Positions 2,348 through 28,596 of a stretch of 42,017 bases of DNA are shown piece by piece. The translations under genes were made by a program, and so were the position numbers. Origin of the DNA: Chiloscyllium plagiosum (lineage: Eukaryota). The stretch is from positions 53,323,015 to 53,365,031 of the forward strand of contig NC_057718.1 in the NCBI RefSeq assembly GCF_004010195.1. The letters are read 5' to 3'. Position 1 is the stretch's first letter; the number at the start of each line of letters is the position of its first letter. A model generated the notes under the pieces. The model did not search any database, was not told the DNA's origin, and saw nothing but the letters and a program-made list of their open reading frames with translations.

Positions 2348-2447
2348 ATTCCCTCATTCCTTATGAAGGGCCTGTGCCCGAAATGTTGATTATCCTGCTC
2401 CTCTGATGCTGCCTGACCTGCTGTGCTTTTCCAGCACCACGCTCTCG
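2348..2447 (+). mobile_element. Penelope-like element (PLE) terminal-repeat fragment with decayed hammerhead motif
   Basis: ccttatgaagggcctgtgcccgaaatgttg...gatgctgcctgacctgctgtgc; imperfect flanking direct repeat actttatttccagag / actttattcccaaag. Confidence 0.75.
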
Positions 2448-2670: not shown

Positions 2671-3358
2671 GAAAGGAAAGTGAACCAAATCCTCAGATGA
2701 AAAATGGACAACTTCTCAGTCTGGCCCAATGATTAGTGAAGTAAAACTAATGTATAACATGTTGTGTTAAATAGCTGAACATTAAACAAATTAACATTGA
2801 AATAAAATCACAGGCTGGTTGTAATCAATTGACTGCAGTTTCCAGCAAGCAATGTAGTTGAGAGCAGTGTTTTTCATCCTATGAAATTTTCAAGTTGATA
2901 ATAGCAATAAAAATAATGAAATAAAACAAAAGAAACCCTGTAGTCCGGAAAATTAAATTAGAGCATTTGTGTTTCTCCGACAGAGAAGCGAGTTCCATTG
3001 TATGTGGATACCTGAGGTAATATTGCTTCAAGTATTCCAATATCGTATAAGGAAAATTTCTACTCTCAACTGGAAAAACACCAGAAAACATTACTATTTC
3101 CATTAAAGCACAAGACATTTTTAATTTGCAATGGGAGGTACTAACATTTTAAATGGTAAATAATTAAACTCTGCATTCAAATGGAGAAAAAAAAGTCAGT
3201 TCTGCAACATAATGACAATGATTATCATGTGTCAACCTGGTTGCCTGTCTTTAGTTTATTTTAACCTTTTAAGCAAATAAGAATTGGCTTAATGACATTA
3301 CTCCCAATGCTAAATGTCTGTTACTCTGCTTAAAAATGTAAGTCAGTTTAAATATACA

Positions 3359-3787
3359 CCACACCGCCCTGTGGCCTAACATTTCAACTCCCCCAGGTAA
3401 AACCTGATGAAGGGCTTTTGCCCGAAACGTCGATTTTACTGCTCCTCGGATGCGGCCTGAACTGCTGTGCTCTTCCAGCACAACTAACCCTTTTCAACTC
3501 CCCCTCCCACTCTGCCGAGGACATGGAGCTCCTGGGCCTCCTTCACCGCCGCTCCCTCACCACCAGACACCTGGAGGAAGAACGCCTCATCTTCCACCTC
3601 GGAACACTTCACTCCTCTCACTTATCTCTCCACCCTTCAGGCTCTCTGCCTGTATTCCTGATAAAGGGCTTTTGCCCGAAACGCCGATTTTACTGCTGCT
3701 TGGATGCTGCCTGAACTGTTGTGCTCTTCCAGCACCACTAATCGAGAATCTGGTTTCCAGCATCTGCAGCCATTGTTTTTACCTACC
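3359..3787 (+). mobile_element. Penelope-like retroelement remnant: GIY-YIG C-terminal coding fragment with two tandem pseudo-LTR copies
   Basis: Encodes PVA*HFNSP / FNSPSHSAEDMELLGLLHRRSLTTRHLEEERLIFHLGTL (PLE GIY-YIG C-terminus); direct repeats at ~3403-3487 and ~3657-3741; 11-bp TSD ttaaatataca at 3348-3358 and 3788-3798. Confidence 0.9.
3396..3440 (+). ncRNA. Minimal (dimer-type) hammerhead ribozyme motif, intact core
   Basis: CUGAUGA (3404-3410), A, stem II GGGC/UUUU/GCCC, GAA, palindromic ACGU, C17 at 3431; helix I GGUAAAAC / G(A)UUUUACU. Confidence 0.7.
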
Positions 3788-3906
3788 TTAAATATACAAG
3801 TGTCCTTTTTTCAACTTGTAAGTCTCAAATCAAAATCGCTTCTTACACTAATATAAAACTATTCTAAAGAAAATAAAACATTTACAAATGTATTCTGAAA
3901 AATTAA

Positions 3907-4080
3907 GACCATAAATGACCATAAAACACAGGAGCTGAAGTGCGCCATTTAGCCATTGACTTTGCTCAAACATATAATGAGATTATGGCTGATCTGATCA
4001 TCTTTAGCTCCGCCTTGTTCCGATAACTTTGATTCCTTTGCTCATTAAAAATGCATCTACCTCTGCCTTGTATTATATTA
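3907..4080 (-). mobile_element. CR1 LINE 3' end
   Basis: gaccataa repeats then aggagctgaagt...gccatt...ataatgagattatggctgatctgat, the reverse complement of a shark CR1 3' UTR. Confidence 0.75.
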
Positions 4081-5375
4081 ACAGCAAATTGTTGATAAAA
4101 GGTCAACAAAGTACAATTTGTTCTCCTTTCTCCCCATCTTTCTTCAAGTTACTTGTTTTGATGTTTGACCAGCTGCGAGATGCTCTTCTTCCAGAAGCAA
4201 ATGAGATTTCTTTTTAATCTTTTTGAATCTAAATAACACCAAAGAGCATTTTTATGGAACTCCTCAACCACGAAGTGATGTCTCAAAGTGTTTTACAGGA
4301 TAGTGGAAACCAGTGAATACAGAATAGGAGAAAAGTCTGCAACAGCTGGACAGAAATAAAAGACAACATGGGAACATATTTTGGATTAGTCTGAAAAAGA
4401 GAAGAAGGCATTAACACATTTAAGGAAACACTGCAGTTGTGCAAAGGGAACTGGAAACTGATGCTGTTATCCTTCTCAGAGACAGATGTTGTAGGAAACA
4501 AGGGCACTGACCAAGTAAACTTGGTTATTTGTTGCACAATATTGTGCTGATGGTACACACTTTAGCCATGATGCATTGGTTTCAATAGAGTCAATCAAAG
4601 TAAAAGGCCGTTTCCACATTTGCTATTGAGCCACTAATTGGTTTGAATGTTAAAATTCAGCTCTGTATTTTAAAGTATTTACATTAAAGGTTAATAACAA
4701 TTGACAAAACTCTAGATTATCAATTAGACTCTTCTCATATTGACCACCTTAATCACAAGCCATCACAATGAGTCATGAAGCATAGCCCCAAGTATACTAA
4801 GGAAGCAATGAATGTGATTCAAGATAGCATATTGTCACTGTTTCTCTCCGTCAAGTACATTTACAACACAACTACTCCCTGTGCACTTTAATTTACACAG
4901 ACACAGGTTTGGCAGGTTAGCTATCTACATGTGCTTCAAACCTTCAATTTCCCTATTTGCCTGCAGGACAAAAATTACAGAATGGGGTGAGCTTTTCAAC
5001 ATTTTAAATCTAAGTGGCGCGAATAAGCCATGTGAGGCTCCCAAAAACATAGAGGAAGTGGGCTAAAGGGAAACCAGAGACAGCACTAAAGCTTCAGATT
5101 TTTACCATTCATGTATTTTTATTCTTTGTTCATTTGTGCACTCATTAATTTCTTGCAACAAAACAAGTGATATGTCTTAATTAAACATTATTTTTGTAAG
5201 GGTATATTTCAGCTACTGGCCTAACATTTGTAGCTATTTTATTCCAATTTTATACAAGAAGGAAAAATTCTGATTGCCTTAGTGTCCATGATTCTGGCAC
5301 CTGACAACACTCAGCTAACTCCGTCTCTCTGTAAAACAGAGGTACATCTACCTGAGTTGCATCCCAAAGAACAAG

Positions 5376-11813: not shown

Positions 11814-12040
11814 AATATGTCACAGTAAGTTATAAGAGTTTCAATCTCTTTGAAATCTTTGGCCATCGCACTGTGGTTTGAACGCTGGACATATACCTGA
11901 TCATGCCTAAGTGTACATGTGCATTATTTTCAATCACAACTAACCATATTGTTTTCTGGTTTGGATTGTTTGCTGCAGCAACCTTTTTTGCTTTGTGCTG
12001 AATTTAGAGTCTGTCTAGAGGATGGATCATGGGTAAATTT

Positions 12041-12250
12041 AAATAGCCGAGGCATATGTCTATGGTAGTTTCTTGCATGTCAGCAACAGGTAAAAATTAC
12101 ATGAACTCACTAGACACAATTACTTGGTAAAAACAATGACTGCAGATGCTGGAAACCAGATTCAAATAGCCGAGGCATATGTCTATGGTAGTTTCTTGCA
12201 TGTCAGCAACAGGTAAAAATTACATGAACTCACTAGACACAATTACTTGG
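12041..12250. repeat. 87-bp perfect direct duplication flanking a 36-bp PLE 3' tail (minus strand)
   Basis: 12041-12127 is identical to 12164-12250; spacer 12128-12163 is the reverse complement of 3746-3781 with one mismatch. Confidence 0.95.
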
Positions 12251-14237: not shown

Positions 14238-16896
14238 AAGGAAGCGGGGTAAGCATGCCAGTCTGTGAGTCTGACTGAAACTACATGGTTTCAAGACCTC
14301 CCTTCCTAGCTTACTCTTAGCAAATGTACAATCTCTGGAGAACAAGATGGACAAACTCAGATCATGGCTCAGCTTCTAGCATGAACTGCGGGACTGCTGC
14401 GCACTCTGCTTCACAGAAACCTGCCTCAACCCATCCATTCCTGACTCCTCACTTCAGGCTGATGGTTTTTCTATCCATCGTATGGACCGTACAGCATCCT
14501 TGGGTAAGATAAAAGGTGGAGGGGTTTGCTTTTTAATCAACAACTTGTGATACATGGGCATTGCAACCCTGGGCAGCCATTGGTCCCCAAACCTTGAACT
14601 CCTCACCATCAAATGCTGCCCCTTCTGTCTACCACGGGAATTTACTACTGCTATACTAACTGCTGTGTACATACCGCGACAAGCAAAGGTTGAGAAAGCT
14701 TTAGATGTGCTGTACTCCACCATTACCACCCTGGAGAGGGAACACCCTGAGGCCCTGTTTATTGTAACTGGTGATTTCAATCAAGCCAATCTAAGGAAGG
14801 TGTTGACCAAGTACCACCAGAACATTACCTGCTCCACCTGGGCCCTGAATATTTTAGACCACTGCTACACCACTGTGAAGGATGCTTATCGCTCCATTCC
14901 CCGCCCTCATTTCAGGAACACCAACCACAATGCCATGCTTCTTCTCCCGGCTTACAGGCAAAAGCTCAAGCAGGAGACCCCCTCGCAGATACAGGTTGAG
15001 CGCTGGCCGGAGGAGGGAGAGGATCAACTCCATTGCTGTCTGGAATCGGCTGATTGAACATGGCCCAAACAGTCCACAGGTCCCTTGGACAAGTAAGCCA
15101 CCACCATCACAGACATTATCAGCAAGTGTATGGAGAACTGCATACCAAGGACGTTAATTCAGATGTTCCCCAACAAGAAACCTGGATGAATCAGGACATA
15201 CGGAACATGCTAAAAACCAGGCATGAGGCCTTCAGATCAGGAAACCCACTCAAATATAAGGAATCCAAGTATGACCTTCGCAGAGCCATTAAGACAGCCA
15301 AGGTCCAATCCTGATCCAAGCCAGAGACCCAGACAGACACCCGGACACTATGGCAAAGACTGAATGACATCACAGGTTCTAAAAAGAGATAGTGCAAGAT
15401 AGCAGACGATGACATATCCCTCCCAAATCATTGCAATGCCTTCTATGCTCATTTTGAGCAGAATTGCGGCGGAGAGATAACACCTTTTCCGACAAGTCCT
15501 GACGAACCTATCCGAACAGTCACTGCATCGGAGGTCAGATCAGTTTTCCTTCGTGTGAATCCAAGGAAAGCAATGGGACCAGATGGAGTACCAGGCTGTG
15601 CACTCCGAGCATGCACAGATCAACTGGCAGATGTCTTCTCGGACATCTTCACCCTCTCCCTGCAGTAGGCCACTGTCCCTGCCTGTTTCAAGAGGGCCAA
15701 CATCATTGCTGTGCCTAAGAAGGCTCATGCAACATGTCTCAATGACTACCACCCAGTGGCCCTAACTGCGGTGGTCATGAAATGCTTTGAATGGCTGGTC
15801 ATGGCATTAATCAACTCCAGCCTCCTCACTATTCTTGACTCACTCCAATTTGCCTATCGGACCAACAGTTCCATGTCAGGTGCCATATCACTTGCCTTTC
15901 ACTCCTCCCTCAAACATCTTGACACCAATAACAGCAATGTAAGAATCCTACTCATTGACTACAGTTCAGTCTTCAACACTATTATTCCCTCGAGACTGAT
16001 TACTTAACTTAGTGATCTCGGACTAAGCCCCACTCTCAGCAACTGGATCCTCGGTTTCCTGACCCACAGGCAACAATCAGTTAAGATTTGGGACAATATT
16101 TCATTGTCACTAACACTCAACACTGGAGCACTCCAGGGGTGCGTACTCAGCCCCCTACTGTGCTCACTGTATACCCATGACTGCTTCACCAAATACCAGA
16201 CTAATGCCATTTACACGTTTGCTGATGATACCTCCATAGTTGGTTGAATCTCAGATGGCGACGAAACAGATGACAGACGGGAGGTGGAAGATCTGGAAAA
16301 ATGATGCACTGAGAACAACCTAGCTCTCAAGGCCGGCAAAACCAAGGAACTCATTATTGAATTTCGGCAGAATGTTTCTCATGCCCCCCTGCACATTAAC
16401 AGCACAGAAGTGGAACGAGTGGAGAGTGTCAAGCTCCTGGGAGTGGTCATCCACAACAAGCTTTCTTGGACTCTTCATGTGGACACACTGATTACAAAAG
16501 CCCAACAACATCTCTTCTTCCTCAGGCAGCTGAGAAAATTTGGCATGACGGCGAATACCCTTGCCAACTTTTATAGGTGCGCCATCGAGAGCATTCTGTC
16601 TGGATGTATCACTACCGGGTATGGCAACTTACCATTCAAGATCTGCCATGGTTACAGAGAGTGGTGAACTCGGCCCAGACAATCACAATCTCCCATCTAT
16701 AGAATCCATCCACCAGGCCCGCTGTCAAGGAAAGGCCGCCAGCATTCTCAAAGGTCCATCCCACCCTGGCAAAGTTTTTCTACAACCTCTACCATCAGGG
16801 AGAAGGTACAGAAGCCTGAACAAAAGCACCAGCCAGTTTCGTAACAGTTTCTACCCTAATGTTGTTAGAATACTGAATGGACTCACAAACTCTTAA
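14238..16896 (+). pseudogene. Rex1 ORF (apurinic endonuclease + reverse transcriptase), multiple stops and frameshifts
   Basis: RKRGK, LLLANVQSLENK, FTET, GGGVC, VYIP, GDFN, LDHCY (APE); [41 protein letters not shown] at 16218-16229 (RT); KAQQHLFFLRQLRKF (DUF1891-like). Confidence 0.92.
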
Positions 16897-19223: not shown

Positions 19224-19418
19224 CTGAAAATGTGTTGTGGAAAAGCGCAGCAGGTTAGGCAGCATCCAAGGAGCAGGAGAATCGACGATTCCTGAAGAAG
19301 GGCTCATGCCCGAAACGTCGATTCTCTTGCTCCTTGGATGCTGCCTGATCTGCTGCGCTTTTCCAGCAACACATTTTCAACTCTGATCTCCAGCATCTGC
19401 AGTCCTCACTTTCTCCTC
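19224..19418 (+). mobile_element. PLE fold-back insertion with hammerhead motif
   Basis: Inverted arms ~19225-19287 and ~19316-19379; PLE tail ccagcatctgcagtcctcactttctcc; 15-bp TSD ctgctaatattagca at 19209-19223 and 19419-19433. Confidence 0.9.
19288..19325 (+). ncRNA. Minimal hammerhead ribozyme motif, intact core
   Basis: CUGAAGA (19292-19298), A, GGGC/UCAU/GCCC, GAA, ACGU, C17 at 19319; helix I weak. Confidence 0.6.
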
Positions 19419-26968: not shown

Positions 26969-27898
26969 AAGCTGTTTTTGAAATAGCCAAAACATTATTT
27001 AAAAGATGGTGATGATTCAAAATATATATTTTGCATGTCCTTATTTATCGAGGTTCAGAAAGCAGATCCAGAGTTAAGCAAGTCCATACATGCAAGTCAC
27101 ACTATTATTTTAAAAACTCAGTGTTAATGAGGGAGTGCATACACTCTCACAGATCTGAAAATGAGAAATCAACAGTGGATAATCTAAGCAGTGGTACTGC
27201 CCAAGTCTTGTAAGAAAATATTAGGTGTGGCACATGAAATTCCTATGACGGGACGTTTTGGAGTACAGAAAGCTCAAACATCAATAAGCAGGTATTTAAC
27301 CTGGTCAATAAGGATGCGGTGAAGTTCTGTAAAACATGTCATACATGCCAGATAGTAGGAAAATCTCATATAATCAAATTGGCTCCTTTCAATATCCATA
27401 CTGATGAACTCTTCACCATTTGTAGTCAATGTGAAGAACCATTACTGAAAAAAGAAAATGGGATGCAGTATTTCCTTACAGGTGTGGAAAGGACAACACA
27501 ATTTCTAGGAGCTTTTTTTTCTTTGGGGACAACTACAATTAAGATAATGATGAAAACAATAACACAGGTTTTTACATATTATAGGTTACCAATTGAAATA
27601 CAGTCAGACCAATGTTCTAAATTTACGTGTCAAATTTTTCAGGACATAATTAGCAATTTTGATATAAGACAGTTACTACTGTCTACAGCTGAAGGAAATT
27701 TATCGACATATACCAAGATGTATTATGTTAGCCTGTATGATATGGATGTAGGGGAATTAATCGCAATAAGACAACACTTTTATCTGTTAAACTTGGAAAA
27801 CAAGATCAAGTGTGAACAAAGGTTTAATATATGTTGGAAAATAACCTGATTCAACTTAGTTAAAGAAGTTGAAGTTCACCAGTGACATTAGTTCTGAA

Positions 27899-28325: not shown

Positions 28326-28445
28326 ACTACTTTATTCTGAATCAATTACAGAAAAGTAAATGCAATAAACAGAACAGATTAATATTTAATATCTTGGTTG
28401 GAAAATTGCATCAATGGGTGGGCAGGGCGTCTTTCCTTTCTAAGA

Positions 28446-28596
28446 GAAAGTAAGGACTGCAGATGCTGGAATTCAACTCGAGAGTGTGGGACTGAAAAAG
28501 CACAGCAGGTCACGCAGCATCCAAGGAGAAGAAAAATCGACGTTTCGGGCATAAATCCTTCATCCTGCTCCTCCGATGCTGCCTGACCTGCTGTAC
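28446..28596 (-). mobile_element. PLE family-1 insertion with 5' inversion
   Basis: gactgcagatgctgga...cagcatccaagg...tcgacgtttcgggc, then inverted cctgctcctccgatgctgcctgacctgctg; 16-bp TSD tctttcctttctaaga at 28430-28445 and 28597-28612. Confidence 0.85.

What the first reader, a model, noticed from the sequence alone, without database searches (positions are those of the whole stretch)
3396..3440. Intact minimal hammerhead ribozyme in shark Penelope-like repeats, recurring across the window
Seen: CUGAUGA-A-GGGC(UUUU)GCCC-GAA-ACGU-C at 3404-3431. Related motifs occur at 19292-19319 (intact), 3658-3685 and ~2360-2388 (mutated) and ~28538-28563 (-, truncated). In the plus-strand copies the GGGC/GCCC stem is constant while the loop varies (UUUU, UCAU, CUGU), as expected for a conserved RNA structure. 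Established: PLEs carry minimal type I hammerheads whose palindromic helix III lets them cleave as dimers. Inference: this dense shark family is a large pool of self-cleaving RNA motifs that could cut host pre-mRNAs. This copy also has an unusually good helix I (GGUAAAAC/G(A)UUUUACU).
Basis: partly seen in the sequence, partly recalled or inferred. Interest (0 to 1): 0.72.

Follow-up and report, generated by a model that had tools for sequence, protein, structure and literature searches.

The report
Nested shark Penelope stub with hammerhead
This is a real, intact copy of a known kind of tiny self-cutting RNA motif, carried by a very abundant jumping gene in a likely shark genome; its apparently strong closing stem is likely an insertion by-product and its only close partner is mutated, so it likely does not cut host RNA.

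Summary
The hammerhead core at 3404-3431 is real: 87,506 exact genome matches, control 0. It belongs to the terminal repeat (pLTR) of a Penelope-like retroelement with a Neptune-type zinc-finger linker; such motifs are published (PMC4209133). This copy is a 97-bp stub with a 13-bp target duplication, nested in another copy's endonuclease fragment. Its 'unusually good helix I' is not native. The 5' strand is the reverse complement of the element's own 3' end, and the predicted fold traps the core. The tandem partner 254 nt away carries G8A and U16.1C. Inserted copies lose catalytic G12 at the ordinary CpG rate (14/68). Loop variation marks subfamilies, while true covariation appears between families. 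No host gene was found, and RNA reads showed no end pile-up. Host pre-mRNA cutting is therefore unsupported. More informative: copies start just before the core (59/131), not at the cut site (3/131), with a G excess, so templates were likely uncut. The scan found this start pile-up before, in this genome and others. Added here: half (15/30) of apparent cut-site starts are fold-backs in helix I register.

The parts
3404..3431 (+). Intact minimal hammerhead core: C3-A9 3404-3410, bulge A3411, helix II 3412-3415/3420-3423, GAA 3424-3426, palindrome ACGU 3427-3430, C17 3431 (predicted cut 3' of it)
   Evidence: helix II pair probability 0.99 or more
3395..3491 (+). Inner insertion: short 5'-truncated pLTR stub starting at 3403 and ending about 3487-3489 (the inner of the family's two 3' end classes), preceded by a tiny inverted piece
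3395..3402 (-).
   Evidence: perfect complement of 3777-3784 and pairs with it in the fold of the whole insertion; the same 8-nt terminus is in 10 of 12 family ends read from loci L032-L050
3382..3394 (+). Left copy of 13-bp target-site duplication of the inner insertion
   Evidence: identical to 3492-3504; the other 19 loci run from 3394 on into 3505 with no insert
3492..3504 (+). Right copy of the 13-bp target-site duplication
3359..3787 (+). Outer insertion: 5'-truncated Penelope-like copy (end of GIY-YIG endonuclease coding region 3359-3394 + 3505-3611, internal deletion, pLTR, full tail ending at about 3784)
   Evidence: flanked by an 11-bp direct repeat at 3348-3358 and 3788-3798
3658..3685 (+). 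Tandem partner hammerhead, 254 nt downstream, with G8A (3663) and U16.1C (3684): predicted dead both as enzyme strand and as substrate strand
   Evidence: family reads and contigs show G at 3663 and T at 3684
3654..3657 (+). Native 5' strand of helix I (ATTC); its A is where family 5' ends peak (predicted transcription start)
19224..19418 (.). Fold-back insertion of a sister subfamily: intact core 19292-19319 on +, inverted arm 19224-19291; predicted long hairpin that pairs GAAACGUC and the cut site
   Evidence: (-109.3 kcal/mol, z -18)
2356..2443 (+). Older copy with mutated core (G5U, C15.2U, C17U)
28438..28594 (-). Fold-back insertion, minus-strand copy truncated inside the core, short inverted arm 28563-28594

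Best explanation
The motif is the minimal hammerhead of the terminal repeat of an abundant Penelope-like retroelement, left as a 97-bp stub nested inside another copy, and at this locus it is likely an inert passenger rather than a cutter of host RNA. Shown: the core, the element identity, both target duplications, the inverted origin of the helix I 5' strand, the mutated tandem partner, near-neutral decay of inserted cores, and 5' ends piling just before the core. Inferred: the element's RNA starts at the A of ATTC (initiator-like; consensus recalled). Reverse transcription would begin about 85-130 nt downstream, at the two tail ends, and run off the uncut, probably capped 5' end. It often folds back or switches template, which gives the many short and inverted stubs. 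The hammerhead is kept by selection in source elements, where it would cut as a protein-assisted dimer of tandem repeats (from PMC4209133 and PMC11167929; untested here). Most dispersed stubs have no partner, no protein and often an inverted arm that blocks the core.
For: Element: GIY-YIG above cut-off in L036. Full-length relatives have RT + GIY-YIG, and the family has a CX4CxxC linker. Anatomy: 13-bp and 11-bp duplications, and 3395-3402 is complementary to the terminus. The forced hammerhead fold is -10.7 kcal/mol against an MFE of -15.0, in which UGAUG pairs with CGUCG. Decay in 68 copies spanning the core: G12 (CpG) 14/68 vs non-core CpG G 28/169, p=0.46; core G/C 8/203 vs 82/1690, p=0.73; 36 of 68 intact. 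5' ends of 131 non-inverted segments: 59 at -9..+8, 21 at +9..+36, 3 at +27..+31 against 3.75 expected. G before ATTC 7,979 vs A 3,757, a 3.1-fold excess over base composition. 3' ends form two clusters about 35-40 nt apart, the published tail. RNA run X5: 900 reads laid, both strands, no start or end pile.
Against: Core A/T positions are slightly less mutated than non-core A/T (8/475 vs 55/1542, p=0.048). In the finding's own subfamily, starts at the cut site (279) exceed starts 3 nt upstream (52). After I removed fold-back and one-base-insertion classes by hand from the 100 listed, an excess of about 3-fold remained, so a small cleaved-template class is possible. One transcribed copy elsewhere starts exactly at the cut site in DNA. 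The RNA test is weak: poly(A) single-cell reads, about 2% of one run, mostly other copies; the second run laid nothing. The G excess could partly come from inverted-junction microhomology, and I could not inspect those loci. No cleavage assay was possible.
Confidence: 0.8

Rival explanations
1. One reading: dispersed intact cores, this one included, cleave host pre-mRNA by pairing in trans or at long range through the ACGU palindrome, helped in this copy by the long helix.
For: 87,506 intact cores, all sharing one palindrome, so trans partners are abundant. Family sequence is present in poly(A) RNA on both strands. The outer 7 bp of the helix form in the isolated 45-mer. A preprint reports retrozyme depletion in Xenopus introns (10.64898/2026.07.22.740005, passages).
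Against: The cis partner is G8A/U16.1C. The pair next to the core is not formed and the core is trapped. There is no sign of selection for or against G12. Forward and reverse counts are equal genome-wide (uninformative without gene annotation). No host exon was found in 146 of 239 window ORFs or in 59 of 71 candidate exons across 202 kb. Only about one read lay on the unique flank. Published monomers are inactive and dimers slow (PMC4209133).
Confidence: 0.07
2. The hammerhead cuts the element's RNA routinely, and most genomic copies derive from cut or circularised RNA (the Cervera and De la Pena model).
For: The core and palindrome are preserved across three families with compensatory helices. 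There is a residual excess of starts at +29 in the finding's subfamily. 41 of 59 listed one-base insertions in that subfamily type sit at the cut site, against 4 of 41 in the sister type (counted by hand).
Against: Only 3 of 131 non-inverted copies start at +27..+31 (upper 95% bound 6.5%). Of 30 inspected +29 starts, 15 are fold-backs whose inverted arm carries the uncut core right at the junction and 3 have plain host flank. The sister subfamilies give 289 at +29 vs 280 at +32. The one-base insertions may be one inherited sub-lineage. Short stubs need not represent how full-length copies are made.
Confidence: 0.1
3. The motif is a chance or vestigial sequence with no ribozyme role even in source elements.
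For: Near-neutral decay in inserted copies. The native helix I is only 4 bp, with a U-U mismatch in most subfamilies. No Rfam hammerhead hit.
Against: Three families keep the core with different paired helices (GGG/CCC, GGA/TCC, GTC/GAC; ACGT vs AGCT; TTC/GAA, CAC/GTG, GCA/TGC). Subfamily-variable columns fall in N7, loop II and the flank and never in the core.
Confidence: 0.03

Closest known systems
Minimal hammerheads (min-HHR) in pLTRs of metazoan Penelope-like elements (Cervera and De la Pena 2014, PMC4209133; parts 1-2 of 4 read, supplement file 2 searched, file 1 not available)
   Same: Core, unpaired base before helix II, G10.1-C11.1 pair, palindromic 15.2-16.2, short helix I, mostly single dispersed copies from truncated elements, opposite-strand pairs; Neptune, Poseidon and Xena elements of fishes are named there.
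   Different: Helix II is 4 bp here (7-8 in the Schistosoma families). 87,506 strict copies against about 9,000 in the richest vertebrate named there. No shark term was found in supplement file 2. This copy has a non-native helix I.
EN+ PLE insertion structure with pLTR, inverted 5'-truncated copy and 30-40 bp tail; Neptune/Nematis linker (Craig et al. 2021, PMC8557442; passages read)
   Same: Inverted arm next to the forward copy, tail on one end only, CX2-5CxxC linker before a C-terminal GIY-YIG.
   Different: The inverted arm here is only 8 nt, and the stub is nested in another copy with clear 11-13 bp duplications. Clade not placed on a tree.
Poseidon element of the green anole, PAc (Frangieh et al. 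2024, PMC11167929; parts 1-2 of 4 read)
   Same: Two 3' end classes matching two internal RT start sites; uncut RNA as dominant substrate; no RNA-seq ends at the cut site.
   Different: Different clade (no zinc-finger linker in Penelope/Poseidon per PMC8557442). In PAc the ORF starts inside the hammerhead; this was not examined here.
Non-LTR retrozymes (10.64898/2026.07.22.740005; part 1 of 5 and passages read)
   Same: Non-coding, type I hammerhead, PLE-derived; reported in one chondrichthyan genome.
   Different: They are tandem arrays with a complete hammerhead in each unit. The 254-nt spacing here is a nested insertion with a dead second core.

Membership tests
min-HHR of metazoan PLEs | Core CUGANGA...GAAA..UH intact | tested here: met
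   3404-3431
min-HHR of metazoan PLEs | Unpaired base between A9 and 10.1, and G10.1-C11.1 pair | tested here: met
   A3411; G3412-C3423, probability 0.99
min-HHR of metazoan PLEs | Palindromic 15.2-16.2, no loop III | tested here: met
   ACGU 3427-3430; AGCU in a second family
min-HHR of metazoan PLEs | Short helix I closing the core | tested here: inconclusive
   Family: ATTC/GATT or ATTC/GAAT. This copy: non-native strand, 1 bp then a bulge, core-proximal pair probability 0.02 or less
min-HHR of metazoan PLEs | Located in the pLTR of a PLE | tested here: met
   downstream of the GIY-YIG coding end in family copies
min-HHR of metazoan PLEs | Self-cleavage as dimer or with protein help | not testable with these tools
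   needs an assay; one weak RNA lay showed no end pile
Canonical type I hammerhead (Rfam families) | Match to a curated covariance model; helix III with a loop | tested here: not met
   no hammerhead family among 6 hits at E up to 5
EN+ Penelope-like element | RT with DKG motif and C-terminal GIY-YIG | tested here: met
   GIY-YIG 25.4 bits vs cut-off 22.6; genome RT fragment 46% identical to the full-length RT+EN protein P0004. No intact full-length copy was recovered: assembly gaps in the stretches fetched
EN+ Penelope-like element | pLTR, inverted truncated copy, 30-40 bp tail | tested here: met
   78 of 209 segments have an inverted partner; 3' ends cluster at about +84-93 and +123-130
Neptune clade | CX2-5CxxC linker between RT and EN | tested here: met
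   CX4CxxC in L036, L050, L058 and P0002; shared with Nematis
Neptune clade | RT phylogeny groups with Neptune references | not tested
   no named reference set was fetched
Non-LTR retrozyme | At least two consecutive tandem units, each with a complete hammerhead | tested here: not met
   nested insertion with target duplication; second core mutated

The most novel reading that the evidence does not exclude
The genome's tens of thousands of stubs record that this Neptune-type element normally reverse-transcribes uncut, capped RNA that begins at the first base of helix I, and that helix I complementarity sets the register of cDNA fold-back that builds inverted arms. The hammerhead would then act mainly as a 5'-end structure in integration, and the apparent 'cleavage footprint' at the cut site would be largely a fold-back footprint.
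Probability: 0.4. Interest if true: 0.55.

Novelty: new member of a known kind. Interest (0 to 1): 0.3.

Why it matters
The motif and its dimer logic are published, and this copy looks inert, so the locus itself matters little. The family is useful as a large natural sample for an open question, namely what PLE hammerheads do (called unclear in PMC8557442). Its copy ends favour uncut templates, agreeing with the one in vitro study. They also show a trap: starts at the cut site can be fold-back junctions. If host pre-mRNA cutting were real, about 87,000 sites would be a large burden on gene expression, but nothing tested here points that way.

Tried and rejected
Rfam scan: no hammerhead hit, expected for a motif without helix III. 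Full-length element: four long open frames proved to be assembly gaps in the output seen (partly cut), so no intact ORF from this genome was read. Host gene: Pfam on 146 of 239 window ORFs gave only mobile-element domains and weak hits; 59 of 71 candidate exons over 202 kb gave nothing above cut-off; gene and strand unknown. Sequencing runs: no RNA holder listed. Only 2900-4600 was laid, so splice joints elsewhere in the window were not examined. Run X6 laid 0 reads. A 38-read loose-end cluster at 3432 looked like an RNA junction at the cut site, but the same junction is in genomic DNA at one other locus; rejected as an RNA event. Retrozyme reading of the 254-nt spacing: rejected (target duplication; the other 19 loci lack the insert). 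The cut-site patterns are not perfectly matched controls: the +29 filter lets one-base insertions through while the +26 and +32 filters do not, and no +32 control was run for the finding's subfamily. One pairing probability used a wrong index and was redone. Lunse et al. 2016 is not held and is known here only through the review PMC6765202 (passages). A TATA box upstream was not evident by eye and was not tested. Literature searches for shark plus Penelope plus hammerhead found no paper describing this family; most subscription papers and bioRxiv supplements were not searchable.

Full report
Observation. The sequence at 3404-3431 is as described. A generic core pattern matches twice in the window, at 3404 and 19292, against 0.01 expected from 100 shuffles. 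The family pattern with up to 3 mismatches matches four times against 0.00. The minus-strand copy near 28538-28564 begins inside the core. Genome-wide the strict pattern has 43,730 forward and 43,776 reverse matches in 3.56 Gb, with 0 for the reversed control. An unselected 1.56 Mb sample gave 34, a similar density. Rfam gave no hammerhead hit.

Element. Bases 3502-3621 translate to the end of an endonuclease with tens of thousands of candidate matches in the genome. A longer family copy hits Pfam GIY-YIG above cut-off and carries a CX4CxxC linker. Its best database relative is 89% identical and labelled Chiloscyllium punctatum by its source, and 816-902 aa relatives carry RT and endonuclease regions. 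An RT fragment from this genome is 46% identical to one of them. By PMC8557442 (passages) the linker marks Neptune or Nematis; I did not build a tree.

Anatomy of the locus. Nineteen other loci match 3358-3394 and then continue directly into the sequence after 3504. The finding therefore sits in an insertion, 3395-3491, flanked by an exact 13-bp duplication (3382-3394 and 3492-3504). The host copy, 3359-3787, has its own 11-bp duplication. The first 8 bases of the inner insert are the exact reverse complement of the element's 3' terminus (3777-3784; same terminus in 10 of 12 family ends read). The forward part ends at the inner of the two 3' end classes. This is the published arrangement of an inverted truncated copy with a tail at one end, with the arm reduced to 8 nt (inference). 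The native 5' strand of helix I is ATTC (23 of 30 loci).

Folding. In the 45-mer the outer 7 bp form, but C3403-G3432 has probability 0.02, and UGAUG of the core pairs with CGUCG at the cut site. The forced hammerhead fold is 4.3 kcal/mol above the MFE. In the whole insertion the helix falls to 0.02 or less because its 5' strand pairs with the true terminus. These are predictions.

Dimer partner. In a double hammerhead each core uses one copy's enzyme strand and the other's substrate strand (established model, PMC4209133). The copy at 3658 has G8A; G8 is proposed as the general acid in PMC6155905 (passage). It also has U16.1C. Both hybrid cores are therefore predicted dead. The next intact copy is 15.9 kb away inside a predicted hairpin of about 50 bp. 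In the sample, 4 of 34 intact copies have an intact same-strand partner within 5 kb, and 11 of 33 have an adjacent inverted arm.

Conservation. I took 249 segments found through the flank downstream of the cut site, dropped 27 as another family, and used the 68 that span the core from native upstream sequence. Subfamily-variable columns lie in N7, loop II, one helix I base and the flank, not in the core. After dropping such columns and one indel-rich stretch, G12 is mutated in 14/68 against 28/169 for non-core CpG G, and core G/C in 8/203 against 82/1690. Core A/T is 8/475 against 55/1542 (p=0.048, the one result leaning toward constraint). 36 of 68 cores are intact. Across three families in the sample the core is kept while helices change in pairs, including ACGT to AGCT. 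So selection acted on source elements, and there is little sign of it on inserted copies.

Where copies begin. Numbering C3 as +1, the cut is after +28. Of 209 segments without an adjacent gap (13 dropped), 131 lack an inverted partner. Of these, 59 start at -9..+8, 21 at +9..+36 and 3 at +27..+31 (p=3e-10 for the pile; 3.75 expected at the cut). BLAST ends are fuzzy by a few bases. Genome-wide, in three sister subfamilies whose native base there is C, G precedes ATTC 7,979 times and A 3,757 times. That fits copying of a cap, but junction microhomology is not excluded. Starts at +29 with three non-native bases before them number 289, against 99 at +26 and 280 at +32. Of the first 30, 15 are fold-backs in which the inverted arm carries the uncut core and joins in helix I register (the script flagged 17; two have extra bases). 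Three have plain host flank, two are one-base insertions, and the rest are other inverted or deleted forms. In the finding's subfamily the counts are 279 at +29 and 52 at +26, with a residual excess of about 3-fold by hand count, so a minor cut-template class stays possible. Earlier scan notes reported the start pile-up and the extra G (e1-8159767, e1-8159471, e1-8639351). I had the start-site idea before reading them, took the extra-G test from them, and reproduced both. Notes e1-9129149 and e1-8622036, on other genomes, read cut-site starts as a cleavage trace; my data here mostly give another cause.

RNA. One poly(A) single-cell run laid 900 reads on 2900-4600, 885 of them under 99% alike and so from other copies, on both strands, with no start or end pile. 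The unique flank had about one read, and the second run laid none. This is weak evidence. No host gene was identified.

Known art and verdict. PMC4209133 (parts 1-2 read) describes these motifs in fish Neptune, Poseidon and Xena elements, with no monomer cleavage and low dimer cleavage. PMC11167929 (parts 1-2) found protein dependence and uncut RNA as the main substrate. PMC2377424 (passages) places the Drosophila Penelope promoter inside the transcribed region. The scan already holds 770 notes with these words. Verdict: new member of a known kind; the locus is likely inert; the host-cleavage claim is unsupported. Interest 0.3, mostly for the family's value as a record of how PLEs copy themselves.

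Noticed in passing
L129:3800-6200, L104:1531-1575 (-), L121:2939-2988, L081:598-648: Two further hammerhead families in the genome sample, one with an AGCT palindrome and CAC/GTG helix I, one with a longer helix II and GCA/TGC helix I.
   Followed up: partly
   Followed up: partly
genome-wide: Of 227 copies with one extra base between GAAA and the downstream flank, the 100 listed show an extra purine at the cut site in 41 of 59 of one subfamily type and 4 of 41 of the other (hand count): an inherited sub-lineage, or repair or jumping at a cut junction.
   Followed up: partly
68 spanning copies: At the three CpG sites in and beside the core, the G is mutated more often than the C (43 vs 19 of 204 each), mainly in the finding's subfamily; would fit deamination of minus-strand cDNA.
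   Followed up: no
L261:1409-1500 (-): A genomic copy that starts exactly at the predicted cut site, with host flank, and is transcribed (38 reads in run X5).
   Followed up: yes
L032-L050: Many copies carry different internal deletions between the endonuclease end and the pLTR, across a pyrimidine-rich stretch; the query selected for them, so their frequency is unknown.
   Followed up: no
window 15669-16664 (+) and 27238-27846 (+): LINE-type reverse transcriptase fragments, and a weak integrase-like fragment below cut-off.
   Followed up: no
window 12037-12127 and 12160-12250: Near-perfect 91-nt tandem duplication, 123-nt spacing.
   Followed up: no
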